Part shown: piece by piece, positions 18,962 through 23,366 of the stretch
Layout: every line of letters starts with the position of its first letter
Position numbering within the stretch: position 1 is the stretch's first letter
Assembly: GCA_050177605.1 (NCBI GenBank)
Contig: JBFXGX010000024.1
Coordinates: forward strand, 1-26,370
Reading direction: 5' to 3'
DNA length: 26,370 nucleotides
Origin: Candidatus Izemoplasmatales bacterium
Lineage (GTDB): Bacteria; Bacillota_I; Bacilli_A; Izemoplasmatales; Hujiaoplasmataceae
Position numbers and translations under genes: made by a program
Notes under the pieces: model-generated
Databases searched by the model: none
The model's input: the letters and a program-made list of their open reading frames with translations, nothing else
What the model was told of the DNA's origin: nothing

Positions 18962-19002
18962 AAAGGTAGATAAGATATTTGTCAAGAAAGGTATTAATAA
19001 TA

Positions 19003-19872
19003 ATGAGTCGTAATCAACTAAATAAAGAATTAGCCCAAATGTTAAAGGGTGGCGTCATTATGGATGTGACGAATGCAGAGCAAGCAAAAATAGCGGAAGC
19101 CGCTGGCGCTTGTGCTGTAATGGCATTAGAAAGAATTCCTGCAGATATTCGTGCTGCTGGAGGAGTTTCAAGAATGAGTGATCCAAAATTAATCAAAGAG
19201 ATTCAAGCTGCTGTTTCGATTCCTGTCATGGCAAAAGTAAGAATTGGTCATTTTGTTGAGGCAGAAATTTTAGAAGCTTTGGAAATAGATTATATTGATG
19301 AATCTGAAGTTTTATCCCCTGCAGATGATATCTATCATATCAATAAAAACAATTTTAAAGTTCCATTTGTATGTGGGGCAAAAAACCTCGGCGAAGCTCT
19401 TCGTCGTATTGAAGAGGGTGCTTCCATGATTCGTACAAAAGGCGAACCTGGTACAGGTGATGTAATACAAGCTGTACGTCATATGCGTATGATTCAGTCT
19501 GAGATTCGCCGCATTTCTTCTTTAAGAGAAGATGAACTTTATGAGGAAGCAAAAAAAATGGGTGTTCCTATTCATCAACTTGAATTTGTTCATCAAAACA
19601 AAAAATTACCTGTAGTCAATTTTGCCGCAGGTGGCGTTGCGACTCCAGCGGATGCGGCACTCATGATGAAACTTGGCGCAGAAGGCGTATTCGTTGGATC
19701 TGGAATCTTTAAATCAGGAAATCCAAAACGCCGTGCAGAAGCGATTGTAAAAGCAGTGACCAATTTTAATGACCCTAAAATCCTAGCGGAGGTTAGCGAA
19801 GATTTAGGAGAAGCTATGGTTGGAATTAACGAAGAAGAAATCGCATTATTAATGGCTGAACGAGGAGAATAA
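19003..19872 (+). CDS. pdxS: Pyridoxal 5'-phosphate synthase lyase subunit
   Basis: [41 protein letters not shown] 19003 preferred over TTG 18979. Confidence 0.97.
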
Positions 19873-19875
19873 ACC

Positions 19876-20478
19876 TTGAAGATAGGCATACTTGCATTAC
19901 AGGGAGCATTTATCGAGCATAAACATATGCTTGATAGATTAAAAGTAGAATCATTTGAAATTAGGCAGTACGCTGATTTAGAAAAAGAAATGGACGGCAT
20001 TATACTCCCTGGGGGAGAATCAACAGTTATGTTAAAACTCCTTCATGATTTAAGAATGTATTATCCACTTAGAAACCTAATTCTATCAGGATTGCCGGTA
20101 TTTGGAACTTGTGCTGGACTCATTTTGCTAGCAAAGACAGTCAATAATGATGATCGTACTTTTTTAAATGTAATGGATATCACGGTAAAAAGAAATGCAT
20201 TTGGTAGACAGTTAGGTAGTTTTCGCCAAATGGGAACTTTTAATAATTTAGAACTAGAATTAGTCTTTATACGAGCACCTTATATTGAGTCTGTTAGTGA
20301 AGAAACTGAGGTTTTAACTTCATTTGATGGGATGATTTTAGCAGCAAGAGAAAATAACATGCTTGCGACTGCATTTCACCCTGAATTATCAAATTCAACA
20401 CTCGTCCATGAATACTTCATTCAAATGGTTCTACGACATAAAAATAAAAGTCACTTTCGAGTGACTTCAAACTGTTAA
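19876..20478 (+). CDS. pdxT: Pyridoxal 5'-phosphate synthase glutaminase subunit
   Basis: ALQGAF, PGGEST, GTCAG, FIRAP, FHPE; TTG start with AGGAG. Confidence 0.96.
   Translation: MKIGILALQGAFIEHKHMLDRLKVESFEIRQYADLEKEMDGIILPGGESTVMLKLLHDLRMYYPLRNLILSGLPVFGTCAGLILLAKTVNNDDRTFLNVMDITVKRNAFGRQLGSFRQMGTFNNLELELVFIRAPYIESVSEETEVLTSFDGMILAARENNMLATAFHPELSNSTLVHEYFIQMVLRHKNKSHFRVTSNC
20448..20467. repeat. Perfect hairpin AAGTCACT-TTCG-AGTGACTT
   Basis: 8-bp perfect stem within the last codons of pdxT; similar to 24875-24896. Confidence 0.7.
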
Positions 20479-21017: not shown

Positions 21018-21509
21018 CTATCTATTTGGATAATGGTATTCTATTTTATTAGGAGCGAAGCGGTTATAACTTTGAATCACTTCTTTCGATGCATGCATTC
21101 GAATCAATGATTTGCTAATTAATTGATTTAAACTGTACTTGGATATATCAAAATTCGCGATAAACAACCATGGTTCTGTAGTAGACATAATTTTGTATTG
21201 TACATTTTCATCCCACGAAATAAATTTCTTTTTATAATTTTTGAATAAAGATACGTGAATACCAGTTTCGTCAAACTCAATAGTTGTATACCCCTTTATG
21301 GTAAGGTGAATCTGTAATCCAAGCGGTCCCACAACTCCTAAAGAATTCATCGTAATCAGTTCAAAAAGAGTAAGTTCAGCTAGTCTAGATACATTACTTA
21401 GTTCGAAAATTAACAATAAAATTGACAAAACTGTTAAGAAAATAAACATCTGAGCAAACTCTTTTGAAGAATAAAATTTATTAATATCTTTATTGGTATC
21501 TTTTTTCAT
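21018..21509 (-). CDS. Hypothetical two-TM membrane protein, separated from its RBS by IS110
   Basis: 163-aa ORF with two hydrophobic segments and a PH-like tail (IEFDETGI...ISWD); no SD next to the ATG in the present state. Confidence 0.65.
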   Translation of the reverse strand: MKKDTNKDINKFYSSKEFAQMFIFLTVLSILLLIFELSNVSRLAELTLFELITMNSLGVVGPLGLQIHLTIKGYTTIEFDETGIHVSLFKNYKKKFISWDENVQYKIMSTTEPWLFIANFDISKYSLNQLISKSLIRMHASKEVIQSYNRFAPNKIEYHYPNR

Positions 21510-21529
21510 AAGTCTTGTATAATCAAAAC

Positions 21530-21750
21530 GTCTTTAATAGATGATTTGATTATCCTTTCTTTATTTGTTTTTGATTTTTAATCGAATTGAGCACTGTGGA
21601 TTTGTTTCATATTTTTTATAGCTTTGACTATTATAGGAGACTCTTACCACAGTTCTTATTTTTTAATGTCAATCAGTAAGTTAGCGCTAGACGCTTCATC
21701 ACAAGACTAAATAAATAAGAATACTGTGACTTACCCAGTGCTAAATCTCA
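21530..21750 (+). ncRNA. Putative IS110 bridge (seek) RNA; ends approximate
   Basis: Nested stems AGCACTG/CAGTGCT (21590/21736) and CACAGTTCTTATTT/AAATAAGAATACTGTG (21648/21713), hairpin AGCG/CGCT; segments complementary to the donor junction and the empty target. Confidence 0.7.
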
Positions 21751-21765
21751 TAAGGAGGTGTTTCT

Positions 21766-22335
21766 ATGTATTATGTTGGAATTGACGTTTCAAAGTACAA
21801 GCATGACTGCTTCATAGCTACTGAAGCAAAAAGTATTAAAGCATTTCAGTTTGATAATAATCGTATAGGTTTCGATTTGTTTCTTACAACACTGAAATCC
21901 TTAGATCGATCACAAGAAATAAGAATAGGTCTTGAGGCAACGGGACACTAAGGCATGAATCTCAAACAGTTTATTTGCGCATCTGGTTATACTTATCTAG
22001 AATTCAATCCTTACTTAACACATCAGTTTTCGAAGGCTATGTCGTTACGTAAGACAAAAACAGATAAGGTAGACGCAAAAACTATTTCAAGTATGCTGGG
22101 TCCCGTTGACTACAAGACCTTACATACTTCATTTTATCACATTAATGAATTAAAACAATGTGTTCGTTATCGTGATCTTAAAATGAAACTCAGATCTAAG
22201 ATACTCGTTGAACTTACAAACGTCCTTGATCGGACGTTCCCTGAGTTCAAAGCATTCTTTAATCATCGATTAGTAGGTAGCGCCATGTTTATTTTGATCT
22301 TTCATTACTTAGATAACCTTATTGTGATTGTGTAG
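21766..22335 (+). pseudogene. IS110-family transposase/recombinase with an in-frame stop and C-terminal truncation
   Basis: YVGIDVSK, IGLEATGH*, FNP, KTDKVDA, LDRTFPE; TAA at 21949 where Tyr is expected (EATGHY); no second (Ser-containing) domain; AAGGAGGTG RBS. Confidence 0.93.
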
Positions 22336-22450
22336 CGCAATCAGTCAATCTATATCTTCTATATCTCTAAAATTACCTTATTTCTAATCCATTAAGGTTT
22401 TTTGTCATTTTTTCTATTTTTATTGATTTATCTATTGACTAAAGATAGTT

Positions 22451-22513
22451 AGTCACCTTATTTTTAACAGACTAGAGAAGTCTATTATACTGAAAAATAA
22501 AGCGCTTATGTAA
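22451..22513 (-). promoter_or_regulatory. Orphaned promoter and RBS, probably of the 21018-21509 gene
   Basis: -10 TATAAT 22484-22489, possible -35 TTACAT 22508-22513, SD AAGGTGA 22453-22459, cre-like CATAAGCGCTTTAT 22497-22510. Confidence 0.6.
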
Positions 22514-22550
22514 TTGGCAATTACTTTATATGTCGTATGCATATCACTTA

Positions 22551-22582
22551 TTAAATACAGCAGATATTTCTGTTGTATTTAA
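22551..22582. terminator. Long hairpin, possible terminator downstream of the lipoprotein gene
   Basis: TTAAATACAGCAGA-TATT-TCTGTTGTATTTAA (13/14 match); weak U tract. Confidence 0.5.
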
Positions 22583-22643
22583 TTGTTATGTAGTTTTATT
22601 CCTAGTCTGCATATTAATAATTTCTATTTAAGAAATCCCCATG

Positions 22644-23366
22644 TTATAACGGTTCATTCCAAGGAGAACTCTCCAAGAAATCAATTAAACCATCTTGATA
22701 TGTAAAGTAATCCGTAAATGTTCGATATCCCACTTCACTATCGTATGTTCCATCAGAATTAAACAACATTATTACCCACTCGTCACTCAATCTAGCTTCA
22801 GCCACAATTAATACCCTTCCATAGTCGTCTGAAATATAGTAATCTAAATTTCTATCATCAGGAAAATGTTCATCATCAGGAAATATGTACTCATATAGGG
22901 GAGCTATTTGCTCATAAGTTAATGGAGAATCTTGTTTAGTTCTTGCTATTTCTGAACATTTGATACGATTATTATCTATTTCGGAATTCCAGTCATTATC
23001 AATCTTTATTTCTTCAATTTCACTTTCACTAAACTCATTATCTGAAGAAGAAATGAAGTTAAGATTTGAATAATAACATACTTCATTTTCGTCTGAATAC
23101 TGCATAACTAATAAACTATAAGAACTAATATTATTACCCTCAAAATAAGTAAAAAGAATTTTACCATTGTCATCATATTCTAAAATATCAATCTCAGGAT
23201 CAAATCTAATTTCACTTTGAATAAATCCTTTTGTCCCTGGAATAACATTCAATGCCTGAGTATACAGGTTAGAATAATCTCCTTCATATTCAAATGAGTA
23301 ATTCCGACAACTCTGAATACCAAATATTACTAATAACATTGTAAAAATCATTATAAGTTTTCTCAT
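22644..23366 (-). CDS. Acidic predicted lipoprotein of unknown function (candidate immunity protein)
   Basis: MRK + hydrophobic core + IQS-C20 lipobox-like signal; D/E-rich; AGGAGA RBS. Confidence 0.75.
   Translation of the reverse strand: MRKLIMIFTMLLVIFGIQSCRNYSFEYEGDYSNLYTQALNVIPGTKGFIQSEIRFDPEIDILEYDDNGKILFTYFEGNNISSYSLLVMQYSDENEVCYYSNLNFISSSDNEFSESEIEEIKIDNDWNSEIDNNRIKCSEIARTKQDSPLTYEQIAPLYEYIFPDDEHFPDDRNLDYYISDDYGRVLIVAEARLSDEWVIMLFNSDGTYDSEVGYRTFTDYFTYQDGLIDFLESSPWNEPL

What the first reader, a model, noticed from the sequence alone, without database searches (positions are those of the whole stretch)
21530..21750. Candidate bridge RNA with identifiable donor and target guides in a nested architecture
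Seen: ACAAGACTAA (21701-21710) is the exact reverse complement of the reconstructed donor junction TTAGTCTTGT. GTGACTTA (21726-21733) is the exact reverse complement of the reconstructed empty target TAAGTCAC. Neither junction is contiguous at the present element ends. Weaker same-strand matches are AGTTAG (21679-21684) to the left donor and TTTCATA (21605-21611) to the left target flank. These sit inside nested stems (21590-96/21736-42 and 21648-61/21713-28). The order would be left-target, left-donor, right-donor, right-target, so the donor loop is nested within the target loop, unlike the tandem loops of IS621. Caveats: the short AT-rich matches could be chance, and the 21726-28 bases also fit the inner stem. 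If real, this is a programmable RNA-guided recombinase scaffold from a little-sampled lineage.
Basis: partly seen in the sequence, partly recalled or inferred. Interest (0 to 1): 0.85.

Follow-up and report, generated by a model that had tools for sequence, protein, structure and literature searches.

The report
Bridge RNA in a dead IS110
This stretch encodes a real guide ("bridge") RNA of an IS110-type jumping gene, laid out in the usual target-then-donor order rather than nested, and it sits in a broken element stitched from two different insertion sequences.

Summary
It scores 160.6 bits against a covariance model of 79 homologues.

Covariation between the RNA and 57-77 element ends and flanks places the guides in the IS621 order:
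- LTG 21608-16
- RTG 21634-39
- LDG 21675-81
- RDG 21701-05

- The right-donor guide is essentially right.
- The left-target guide is nearby but out of register.
- The left-donor guide is 4 nt off.
- The "right-target guide" GTGACTTA (21726-33) matches a target only in this window, 1 of 48.

Both stems covary. The inner ends of the two stems compete with a canonical target-loop closing stem that also covaries.

The element itself (21516-22453) is dead:
- The transposase has a TAA at codon 62 and lacks the whole Transposase_20 domain.
- The part from about 22293 comes from a different IS110. It is 84% identical to L079, and the junction cores are CT on the left but CA on the right, unique among 62 elements.

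The family inserts between Shine-Dalgarno and start codon, like IS900. This is a new member of a known kind, of moderate interest.

The parts
21018..21509 (-). Target gene (163 aa, unknown function). Its ATG (CAT 21507-09 on +) lies 4 nt from the insertion core.
   Evidence: ORF list; only a weak DUF2418 match below the cut-off. 56 of 68 family insertions have CAT within 14 nt left of the core.
21514..21515 (+). Left-junction core dinucleotide CT.
   Evidence: Junction table. 31 CT/CT, 30 CA/CA and 1 CT/CA (this window) among 62 elements.
21516..21523 (+). Start of the left end, TGTATAAT (right donor). TATAAT 21518-23 would be the -10 of a junction promoter.
   Evidence: Independent insertions share sequence only from here rightwards. 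With TTGACT 22435-40 it gives a 17-nt spacer in a circle junction (read from the sequence; inference).
21519..21559 (+). Left-end hairpin (21519-53) followed by the pyrimidine motif TCCTTTC (21553-59). Role unknown.
   Evidence: Fold. The motif follows the hairpin in 64 of 70 distinct left ends.
21577..21582 (+). Putative internal -10 (TTTAAT here; TATAAT or TGTTATAAT in relatives), 7 nt before the RNA's first stem.
   Evidence: Sequence comparison. Inference; no transcription start was mapped.
21590..21742 (+). Bridge RNA core, from the 5' arm to the 3' arm of the terminal stem.
   Evidence: Covariance-model hit window:21586-21758, 160.6 bits, E 5e-29. Conserved upstream of transposases 35-95% identical.
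21590..21596 (+). Terminal stem, 5' arm (pairs with 21736-42).
   Evidence: 86% of cells paired; 5 of 7 pairs with compensatory changes. Distant elements change AGCACUG/CAGUGCU to AACGUUG/CAACGUU.
21594..21599 (+). CUGUGG. Alternative partner of CCACAG 21647-52 (a canonical target-loop closing stem).
   Evidence: 98.9% paired, 8 compensatory cells at 2 pairs. Overlaps the terminal stem by 3 nt.
21608..21618 (+). Left target guide (21608-16, same sense as the left flank) plus the two invariant core-position bases UA (21617-18).
   Evidence: Same-sense identity 0.495 against 0.402 when flanks are shuffled, z 5.7, 0 of 500 shuffles, only at this register. 21617/18 are U and A in both core classes.
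21618..21631 (+). Target-loop hairpin.
   Evidence: All 4 pairs show compensatory changes; 93.9% paired.
21634..21641 (+). Right target guide UAGGAG (21634-39, complementary to core + right flank) and handshake-like bases AC (21640-41).
   Evidence: Complementarity to c2, RT+1, +2, +3, +4 is 0.98, 0.96, 0.96, 0.91, 0.61. 48 of 57 perfect 5-mers with 14 guide variants, against a shuffled mean of 12.6 and maximum of 21. 21640 complements LD-1 in 97%.
21647..21652 (+). Nearly invariant CCACAG. Can pair with 21594-99 or with CUGUG 21724-28.
21653..21661 (+). Donor-loop basal stem, 5' arm (pairs with 21713-21).
   Evidence: 9 of 9 pairs with compensatory changes.
21675..21683 (+). Left donor guide AGUAAGU (21675-81, same sense as the right-end tip) plus core-position UA (21682-83).
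   Evidence: LD-5, -4, -3 identical to 21677, 78, 79 in 100%, 98%, 97%. 46 of 69 identical over 7 nt. The window is the only element with an internal mismatch.
21683..21695 (+). Donor-loop hairpin.
   Evidence: 4 of 4 pairs compensatory; 99.4% paired.
21701..21708 (+). Right donor guide ACAAG (21701-05) and handshake-like ACU (21706-08).
   Evidence: 21703 complements RD+1 in 100% (MI 0.88); 21704 complements core base 2 in 99%. A in 32 of 33 CT elements, U in 43 of 43 CA elements.
21726..21733 (+). It is the 3' joining strand, not a target guide.
   Evidence: 8 of 8 complement only in the window; 2-6 of 8 in the 47 other elements. No matching covariation diagonal.
21766..22295 (+). Transposase remnant: DEDD_Tnp_IS110 domain only, with an in-frame TAA at 21949-51 in place of Tyr62.
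   Evidence: Pfam PF01548 on both pieces. 94% identical to residues 1-177 of an intact 387-aa relative that also has Transposase_20 at 262-346.
22293..22453 (+). Right-end segment from a different (CA-core, L079-type) IS110, including the -35-like TTGACT (22435-40) and the tip AGTTAGT (22447-53).
   Evidence: 84% identical to L079:2647-2811; no hit to the elements that match the left part. The junction is bridged without differences by DNA contigs of two runs of one study (records 7 and 26).
22454..22459 (+). Right-junction core CA and right target CCTT. The reverse complement AAGGTG is the displaced Shine-Dalgarno of gene 21018-21509.
   Evidence: Read from the sequence. The same pattern is seen at the G035 copy, where joining the flanks restores AAAGGAG-N6-ATG.

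Best explanation
Window 21590-21742 encodes the bridge RNA of an IS110-group insertion sequence.

In intact relatives the predicted cycle is as follows. Only the sequence patterns are shown here; the chemistry is inferred from IS621.
1. The element excises as a circle whose right-end/left-end junction creates a TTGAC(A/T)-17-TATAAT promoter.
2. The left end produces an RNA of about 155 nt, probably also from its own TATAAT 7 nt upstream.
3. The RNA has two guide loops in tandem.
4. The first loop reads the target. Its 5' side (21608-16) has the sense of the left flank. Its 3' side (21634-39, AGGAG or AGGUG type) is complementary to the core plus right flank.
5. The second loop reads the donor. 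Its 5' side (21675-81) has the sense of the right-end tip. Its 3' side (21701-05) is complementary to the core plus left-end tip.
6. One base 3' of each right guide (21640, 21706) complements the last base left of the core, like the IS621 handshake guides.

The right target guide looks like a Shine-Dalgarno sequence, so the family lands between the Shine-Dalgarno and the start codon of genes, in one orientation.

The window's copy is a relic. The RNA gene is intact, but the transposase is a nonsense-interrupted N-terminal fragment. The right end belongs to another IS110 with a CA core, so the RNA no longer matches its own ends.
For: Membership and context:
- The ORF pieces carry the DEDD_Tnp_IS110 domain.
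- Intact relatives carry DEDD_Tnp_IS110 plus Transposase_20.
- The RNA lies in the left end, upstream of the gene, in 93 covariance-model hits.

Guide-to-DNA covariation:
- Core base 2 (T or A) is complemented at 21638 and 21704 in 98-99% of 57-71 pairs.
- RT+1 to +3 are complemented at 21637-35 in 96%, 96% and 91%.
- 48 of 57 right-target 5-mers are perfect across 14 guide variants (shuffled mean 12.6, maximum 21).
- RD+1 is complemented at 21703 in 100%.
- LD-5 to -3 are identical to 21677-79 in 97-100%.

Left-target-guide register: z 5.7, 0 of 500 shuffles.

Structure: 88.3% of cells paired, 24 of 29 pairs with compensatory changes, 0 of 500 shuffles reach the observed values, and slid controls are far lower.

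Agreement with IS621: strandedness and order match what is described for IS621 (PMC11208160 passages; PMC11208158 passages).

Relic status.

Not an assembly artefact: DNA contigs bridge the hybrid junction.

Weak hint of transcription: contigs from metatranscriptome libraries of two studies cover 21559-21747 and 21569-21743 of close relatives.
Against: - No transcript end, strand or level is shown. RNA-library contigs can contain DNA.
- The sequences are related, so shuffle statistics overstate significance. Many agreements are inherited, and the CT and CA classes are partly clades.
- The left-target match is weak in absolute terms (0.495 identity). Several copies fit better one or two bases out of register.
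- The core positions of the two left guides are invariantly UA in both core classes. This does not fit the IS621 statement that all four guides pair with the core.
- The base after the right donor guide complements its own donor (97%). In IS621 that arrangement was reported to block strand exchange.
- No Rfam family matches.
- Ends were located with sequence patterns, so elements with unusual ends were not scored.
Confidence: 0.85

Rival explanations
1. The target loop encloses the donor loop, with the right target guide at 21726-33 (GTGACTTA) after the donor loop.
For: - The 8-mer is an exact complement of the joined window flanks, with about 0.007 expected in the left end (my scaling).
- The terminal stem really does enclose both loops.
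- The fold with that stem is the more stable one for the free RNA in 87 of 93 sequences.
Against: - In 47 other elements the same columns complement their targets at only 2-6 of 8 positions.
- No covariation diagonal falls there, whereas 21634-39 gives a clean one.
- The segment is GACUUAC in close relatives whatever their target and is A-rich in the rest.
Confidence: 0.03
2. The conserved structure is a cis-regulatory leader of the transposase mRNA (translation or stability control), not a DNA guide.
For: - It sits directly upstream of the transposase ribosome-binding site (21752-58).
- A pyrimidine motif (21553-59) could pair with that site (inference).
Against: A leader would not be expected to covary base for base with the element tips, the core dinucleotide and the flanking host DNA, on the strands and in the order known for bridge RNAs.
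Confidence: 0.03
3. The window's RNA is still used, supplied in trans to an intact transposase of the same family elsewhere in the cell. On this view the locus is a working guide gene, not a relic.
For: - The RNA scores as high as those of intact elements (160.6 bits; range 51.8-169.5).
- IS621 bridge RNA works in trans (PMC11208160 passage).
- A related intact-looking copy exists in the same samples (record 8 runs on past 22292).
Against: - No second copy was found in the window's assembly with the protein or the DNA. The assembly is 89% complete, and repeats are often unassembled.
- The internal -10 is TTTAAT instead of TATAAT.
- The junction promoter cannot form without excision.
Confidence: 0.1
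4. The hybrid structure (left part of one IS, right end of another) is an assembly chimera at a repeat.
For: The genome is a 66-contig metagenome-type assembly, and insertion sequences often break or mis-join contigs.
Against: Contigs of two DNA runs cover 22116-22600 and 22160-22600 with no differences, across the 22293-95 joint and into the unique flank (records 7 and 26). Both runs are from one study and may include the source sample, so this is not fully independent.
Confidence: 0.05

Closest known systems
IS621 bridge RNA (IS110 group; Durrant et al. 2024, PMC11208160; Hiraizumi et al. 2024, PMC11208158; passages read)
   Same: - Encoded in the left end, upstream of a DEDD/Tnp recombinase.
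- The target loop comes before the donor loop, and each loop has a hairpin between a 5' and a 3' guide.
- The 5' guide has the sense of the left half (it pairs with the bottom strand).
- The 3' guide is complementary to the core plus the right half.
- The core is CT in half of the family.
- A promoter is split across the circle junction.
- Handshake-like bases lie 3' of the right guides.
   Different: - A covarying 5'-3' terminal stem encloses both loops.
- No separate 5' stem-loop lies inside the conserved RNA.
- The invariant CCACAG can pair with either of two CUGUG copies.
- Core positions of both left guides are fixed UA.
- A second core class, CA, is read by U at 21638 and 21704.
- The base after the right donor guide matches its own donor.
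- The target is a ribosome-binding region rather than a REP element (the REP target of IS621 is recalled, not checked here).
IS900 of Mycobacterium avium subsp. paratuberculosis (IS110 family)
   Same: The target motif CATGNNNNNNTCTCCTT is reported in PMC8141618 (passage). Here the pattern is CAT, mostly 5-6 nt, then C(T/A)-CCT. In both cases insertion falls between a start codon and its Shine-Dalgarno, in one orientation.
   Different: - Different phylum and only distant protein relationship (not measured here).
- The spacing differs by about 2 nt.
- No hed-like antisense ORF was seen at the right end (read from the sequence; not systematically tested).
- That IS900 sits between ribosome-binding site and start codon is recalled from older literature. 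Only the motif was seen.
seekRNA of IS1111/ISEc11-type elements (Siddiquee et al. 2024, PMC11187229; passages)
   Same: A short non-coding RNA from the element's own non-coding region selects the target for a DEDD transposase.
   Different: In the IS1111 group the RNA lies downstream of the gene, in the right end, and the elements have long subterminal inverted repeats (PMC11208160 passage). Here the RNA is upstream, in the left end.

Membership tests
IS110 family, IS110 group (element) | DEDD (RuvC-like) N-terminal domain plus C-terminal Transposase_20 domain in one protein | tested here: not met
   The window copy has only PF01548, split by TAA, and no PF02371. Intact relatives L004 and L079 have both. 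The window element is therefore a remnant of a member.
IS110 family, IS110 group (element) | Long non-coding left end, short right end, no long terminal inverted repeats, no target duplication beyond a shared core dinucleotide | tested here: met
   The left end is 250 nt (21516-21765). The right end is about 100-120 nt in intact relatives. The same core appears at both junctions in 61 of 62 elements.
Bridge RNA (IS110-group type) | Conserved structured RNA gene in the left end | tested here: met
   93 covariance-model hits upstream of the transposases. 24 of 29 pairs show compensatory changes, and 0 of 500 shuffles reach the observed values.
Bridge RNA (IS110-group type) | [quoted passage not shown] | tested here: met
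   The right target guide is clear. The left target guide is significant but weak: identity 0.495 against 0.402, z 5.7.
Bridge RNA (IS110-group type) | Second loop covaries with the donor (right-end tip and left-end tip) in the same strand pattern | tested here: met
   LD-5 to -3 are identical to 21677-79 in 97-100%. RD+1 is complemented at 21703 in 100%.
Bridge RNA (IS110-group type) | The core dinucleotide is paired by all four guides | tested here: inconclusive
   The two right guides track the core (A or U at 21638 and 21704). The two left guides carry invariant UA at the core positions in both CT and CA classes.
Bridge RNA (IS110-group type) | Promoter reconstituted at the circle junction | tested here: inconclusive
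   Joining the ends gives TTGAC(A/T)-17 nt-TATAAT (read from the sequence). No circle or transcript was observed.
Bridge RNA (IS110-group type) | The RNA binds the recombinase and directs recombination; specificity follows guide changes | not testable with these tools
   Needs a recombination assay with an intact relative.
   1 of 48 elements (the window) shows the complement; the rest show 2-6 of 8.

The most novel reading that the evidence does not exclude
In this family the bridge RNA may be a three-way junction closed by a 5'-3' terminal stem. The invariant CCACAG would toggle between two CUGUG partners. Pairing with 21594-99 closes the target loop; pairing with 21724-28 extends the donor-loop stem. 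That would make it a conformational switch able to gate which loop is presented. The left guides would not read the core at all (fixed UA), so only the right guides would specify CT versus CA.

Separately, the left-end hairpin with its abutting AGAAAGG (on the minus strand) might hand a substitute ribosome-binding site to the gene whose own site the insertion displaced.
Probability: 0.25. Interest if true: 0.55.

Novelty: new member of a known kind. Interest (0 to 1): 0.32.

Why it matters
Bridge recombinases are being developed as programmable genome-rearrangement tools, so well-resolved natural families are useful. This family has several helpful properties:
- 14 natural right-target-guide variants.
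- Two core classes (CT and CA), each read by a single base in each right guide.
- Intact copies in complete genomes and in named cultured strains: L060, L089, L096, L097, L109.

The family also shows an IS110 lineage in Mollicutes-like and Clostridia genomes aiming at ribosome-binding regions, as IS900 does in mycobacteria.

The window's own copy is a non-functional relic and changes nothing by itself.

Tried and rejected
- Rfam scan of 21300-22700 at E up to 10: only two chance microRNA-model hits.
- Search of the window's own assembly: no second copy.
- Earlier-findings look-ups by place and by sequence: nothing held.
- Single-sequence fold of the whole left end: z only -1.96, not informative alone.
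- RNAalifold on the MAFFT alignment recovered only the terminal stem and the two hairpins. It missed the donor-loop basal stem because of alignment gaps.
- My first structure string for the covariance model mis-paired the terminal stem by one column, which gave 31% pairing. It was corrected. Model R1 was built with that error, so alignment A2 is fitted to a slightly wrong helix 1.
- I first took module 21513-21592 for a separate repeat that might be the IS target. I rejected this because intact elements in several genomes carry it inside their ends, and the flanks diverge exactly at TGTATAAT.
- I first read the core as TC or AGTC. CT (or CA) fits all junctions.
- Complementarity of 21728-34 (GACUUAC) to the left donor guide and right-end tip exists only in the closest relatives and does not covary in the group with AGUUAGU. 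I treat it as unproven.
- Covariation cannot decide between the two partners of CCACAG.
- Parts of the stretch without cover in the RNA-library contigs were not interpreted.
- Habitat labels of small-share runs were not used.

Full report
WHAT IS THERE

The ORFs to the right are two pieces of one IS110-type gene:
- 21766-21948 and 21955-22332 both match the DEDD_Tnp_IS110 domain (PF01548).
- An in-frame TAA at 21949-51 separates them, in place of Tyr62.
- The reading frame leaves homology after residue 177.
- The Transposase_20 domain is absent. Intact 387-388-aa relatives carry it at about 262-349.
- No Rfam family matches the region.
- The window's own 66-contig, 89%-complete assembly holds no other copy.

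RELATIVES AND TRUE ENDS

- Protein and DNA searches of 61 related genomes found homologues in 22 and 15 of them.
- A scan of the species-representative genome collection found 207 stretches encoding relatives, of which 80 were kept.
- By record title these are Acholeplasmataceae and Izemoplasmatales genomes, plus many Clostridia and Bacilli metagenome-assembled genomes and a few cultured strains.
- Independent insertions share sequence only from (C)(T/A)|(T/C)GTATAAT on the left to ...TTGAC(A/T)-N..TAG(T/C)(T/A)NG(T/C)|C(T/A) on the right.
- Joining the ends gives TTGAC(A/T), a 17-nt spacer and TATAAT. This is the junction-promoter arrangement reported for IS621 (PMC11208158 passage). It is an inference from sequence only.
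- In the window the core is CT at 21514-15, the left end starts at 21516, the right-end tip is AGTTAGT at 22447-53, and the right core is CA at 22454-55.

TARGET

- At the complete-genome copy L004/L057, the flanking ORF on the other strand starts at the CAT next to the left end. Joining the flanks restores AAAGGAG-N6-ATG.
- In the window, joining the flanks gives AAGGTG, then ACTT, then the ATG of ORF 21018-21509.
- Across the family, 56 of 68 left flanks have CAT within 14 nt of the core, and 43 of 68 have it at 5-6 nt. Right flanks begin mostly with CCT.
- That each such CAT is a real start codon was checked only for these two copies.
- IS900 has the reported target motif CATGNNNNNNTCTCCTT (PMC8141618 passage), so this target choice is known within the IS110 family.

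THE RNA AND ITS GUIDES

I collected 88 instances of the conserved anchor and aligned 79 distinct RNAs (A1).
- Rows dropped: the three duplicate loci of the window, instances cut by contig ends or containing N, and one minus-strand anchor hit in L049.
- Ends were found with sequence patterns. For L075, L092 and L123 I chose among several left-end matches by hand.

Pairing each RNA with its own flanks and tips gave 57-71 distinct pairs. The results:
- Core base 2 (T or A) is complemented at 21638 and at 21704 in 98-99% (MI about 0.9).
- RT+1, +2, +3 and +4 are complemented at 21637, 36, 35 and 34 in 96%, 96%, 91% and 61%.
- RD+1 is complemented at 21703 in 100% (MI 0.88).
- LD-5, -4 and -3 are identical to 21677, 78 and 79 in 100%, 98% and 97%.
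- The base left of the core in the donor is complemented at 21640 and 21706 in 97%. The base left of the core in the target is complemented there in 81%.

Follow-up counts:
- 48 of 57 right-target 5-mers are perfect complements, with 14 guide variants and 10 distinct perfect pair types. Shuffled pairings gave a mean of 12.6 and a maximum of 21 in 1000.
- By core class, 21638 and 21704 are A in 32 of 33 CT elements and U in 43 of 43 CA elements.
- For the left target guide, same-sense identity over 9 nt peaks at the register LT-1 = 21616. It is 0.495 against 0.402 shuffled, z 5.7, 0 of 500. Neighbouring registers are weaker.
- This signal is real but modest. Several copies fit better one or two bases away.

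The resulting order is LTG (21608-16), hairpin, RTG (21634-39), LDG (21675-81), hairpin, RDG (21701-05). The strand pattern is as described for IS621 (PMC11208160). The bases at 21640 and 21706 behave like handshake guides (PMC11208158).

- ACAAGACTAA: the first eight bases are the right donor guide plus handshake-like bases. The last two are not conserved (21710 is C in relatives).
- AGTTAG (21679-84): 4 nt off the supported register.
- TTTCATA (21605-11): overlaps the left-target-guide region, but in the supported register the window's own flank fits poorly by my own reading of the two sequences (not a tool count).
- GTGACTTA (21726-33): complements the target 8 of 8 only in the window. The other 47 elements score 2-6 of 8. 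In close relatives the segment stays the same whatever the target.
- The window match arises because this flank ends in TAAGT, which resembles the donor tip GTAAGT of the closest relatives.

STRUCTURE

Counts were made on the 93 covariance-model hits aligned as A2. That alignment is fitted to the model, and the model's helix 1 was mis-specified by one column.
- The corrected structure has 88.3% of cells paired and 24 of 29 pairs with compensatory changes. No shuffle of 500 reaches the observed values, and slid controls are far lower.
- The terminal stem (21590-96/21736-42), both hairpins and the donor-loop basal stem (21653-61/21713-21) are supported.
- It can instead pair with CUGUGG 21594-99 (a canonical target-loop stem): 98.9% paired, 8 compensatory cells from probably two events.
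- The nearest-neighbour energy of the free RNA favours the first fold in 87 of 93 sequences.
- Covariation does not decide between the two. Either way the guide order is tandem. What differs from IS621 is a terminal stem that encloses both loops.

THE WINDOW'S COPY IS A HYBRID RELIC

- 21513-22295 is 88-93% identical to L058/L003/L059/L057-type elements. These have a CT core and the right-end tip AGTAAGT.
- 22293-22456 is 84% identical to L079:2647-2811, a CA-core type with tip AGTTAGT. It gives no hit to the first group.
- Among 62 elements with both junctions, 31 are CT/CT, 30 are CA/CA, and only the window is CT/CA.
- The window is also the only element whose left donor guide mismatches its right-end tip at an internal position.
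- DNA contigs of two runs of one study span the joint and the unique flank without differences (records 7 and 26). An assembly chimera is therefore unlikely, although those runs may include the source sample.
- How the joint arose is not shown. A deletion between two neighbouring elements is the simplest idea.

EXPRESSION

Contigs from metatranscriptome libraries of two studies (same year and habitat label) cover 21559-21747, 21569-21694 and 21675-21743 of close relatives. Contigs show neither strand, ends nor level, and DNA can be present in such libraries. This is only a weak hint.

VERDICT

This is a true bridge RNA with a canonical guide order, in a dead hybrid element of a widespread, IS900-like, ribosome-binding-site-targeting IS110 lineage. 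It is a new member of a known kind. The nested-guide idea is not supported.

Noticed in passing
window 21519-21559; left ends of L057-L136: Every left end starts with a covarying hairpin that includes the TATAAT box. In 64 of 70 distinct left ends the hairpin is followed at once by a CCTTTC/CTCCTT motif. On the minus strand this reads AGAAAGG(AG) + hairpin + about 10 nt + the flanking gene's ATG. It could be a substitute ribosome-binding site, or on the plus strand an anti-Shine-Dalgarno for the transposase.
   Followed up: partly
window 21577-21582; e.g. L060 upstream region: A second TATAAT (TGTTATAAT in the 73%-identity group; TTTAAT in the window) lies 7 nt before the RNA's terminal stem. 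This suggests a junction-independent promoter for the bridge RNA.
   Followed up: no
window 21617-18 and 21682-83 (alignment A1): The positions of both left guides that should face the core are invariantly U-A, in CT-core and CA-core elements alike. Only the right guides track the core.
   Followed up: partly
window 21706 / 21640: Both handshake-like positions complement the last donor base (97%) and usually the last target base (81%). In effect the shared sequence is a trinucleotide (T/C)-C-(T/A). Cognate pairing at the donor loop was reported as inhibitory for IS621.
   Followed up: no
L075 (CAZNOO010000050.1) upstream region: The contig shows the promoter-proximal segment of the left end twice, about 90 nt apart. 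This may be a tandem or nested arrangement of two copies.
   Followed up: no
L085:502-695: One relative carries an insertion of about 17 nt in the donor-loop hairpin (a longer stem-loop).
   Followed up: no
window 18979-20478: Upstream of the locus lie pdxS- and pdxT-like ORFs (names from my reading of the translations; not searched).
   Followed up: no
window 22550-22585: A perfect-looking AT-rich hairpin (AAATACAGCAGA...TCTGTTGTATTT) lies between the right flank and ORF 22644-23366(-). It is probably that gene's terminator.
   Followed up: no
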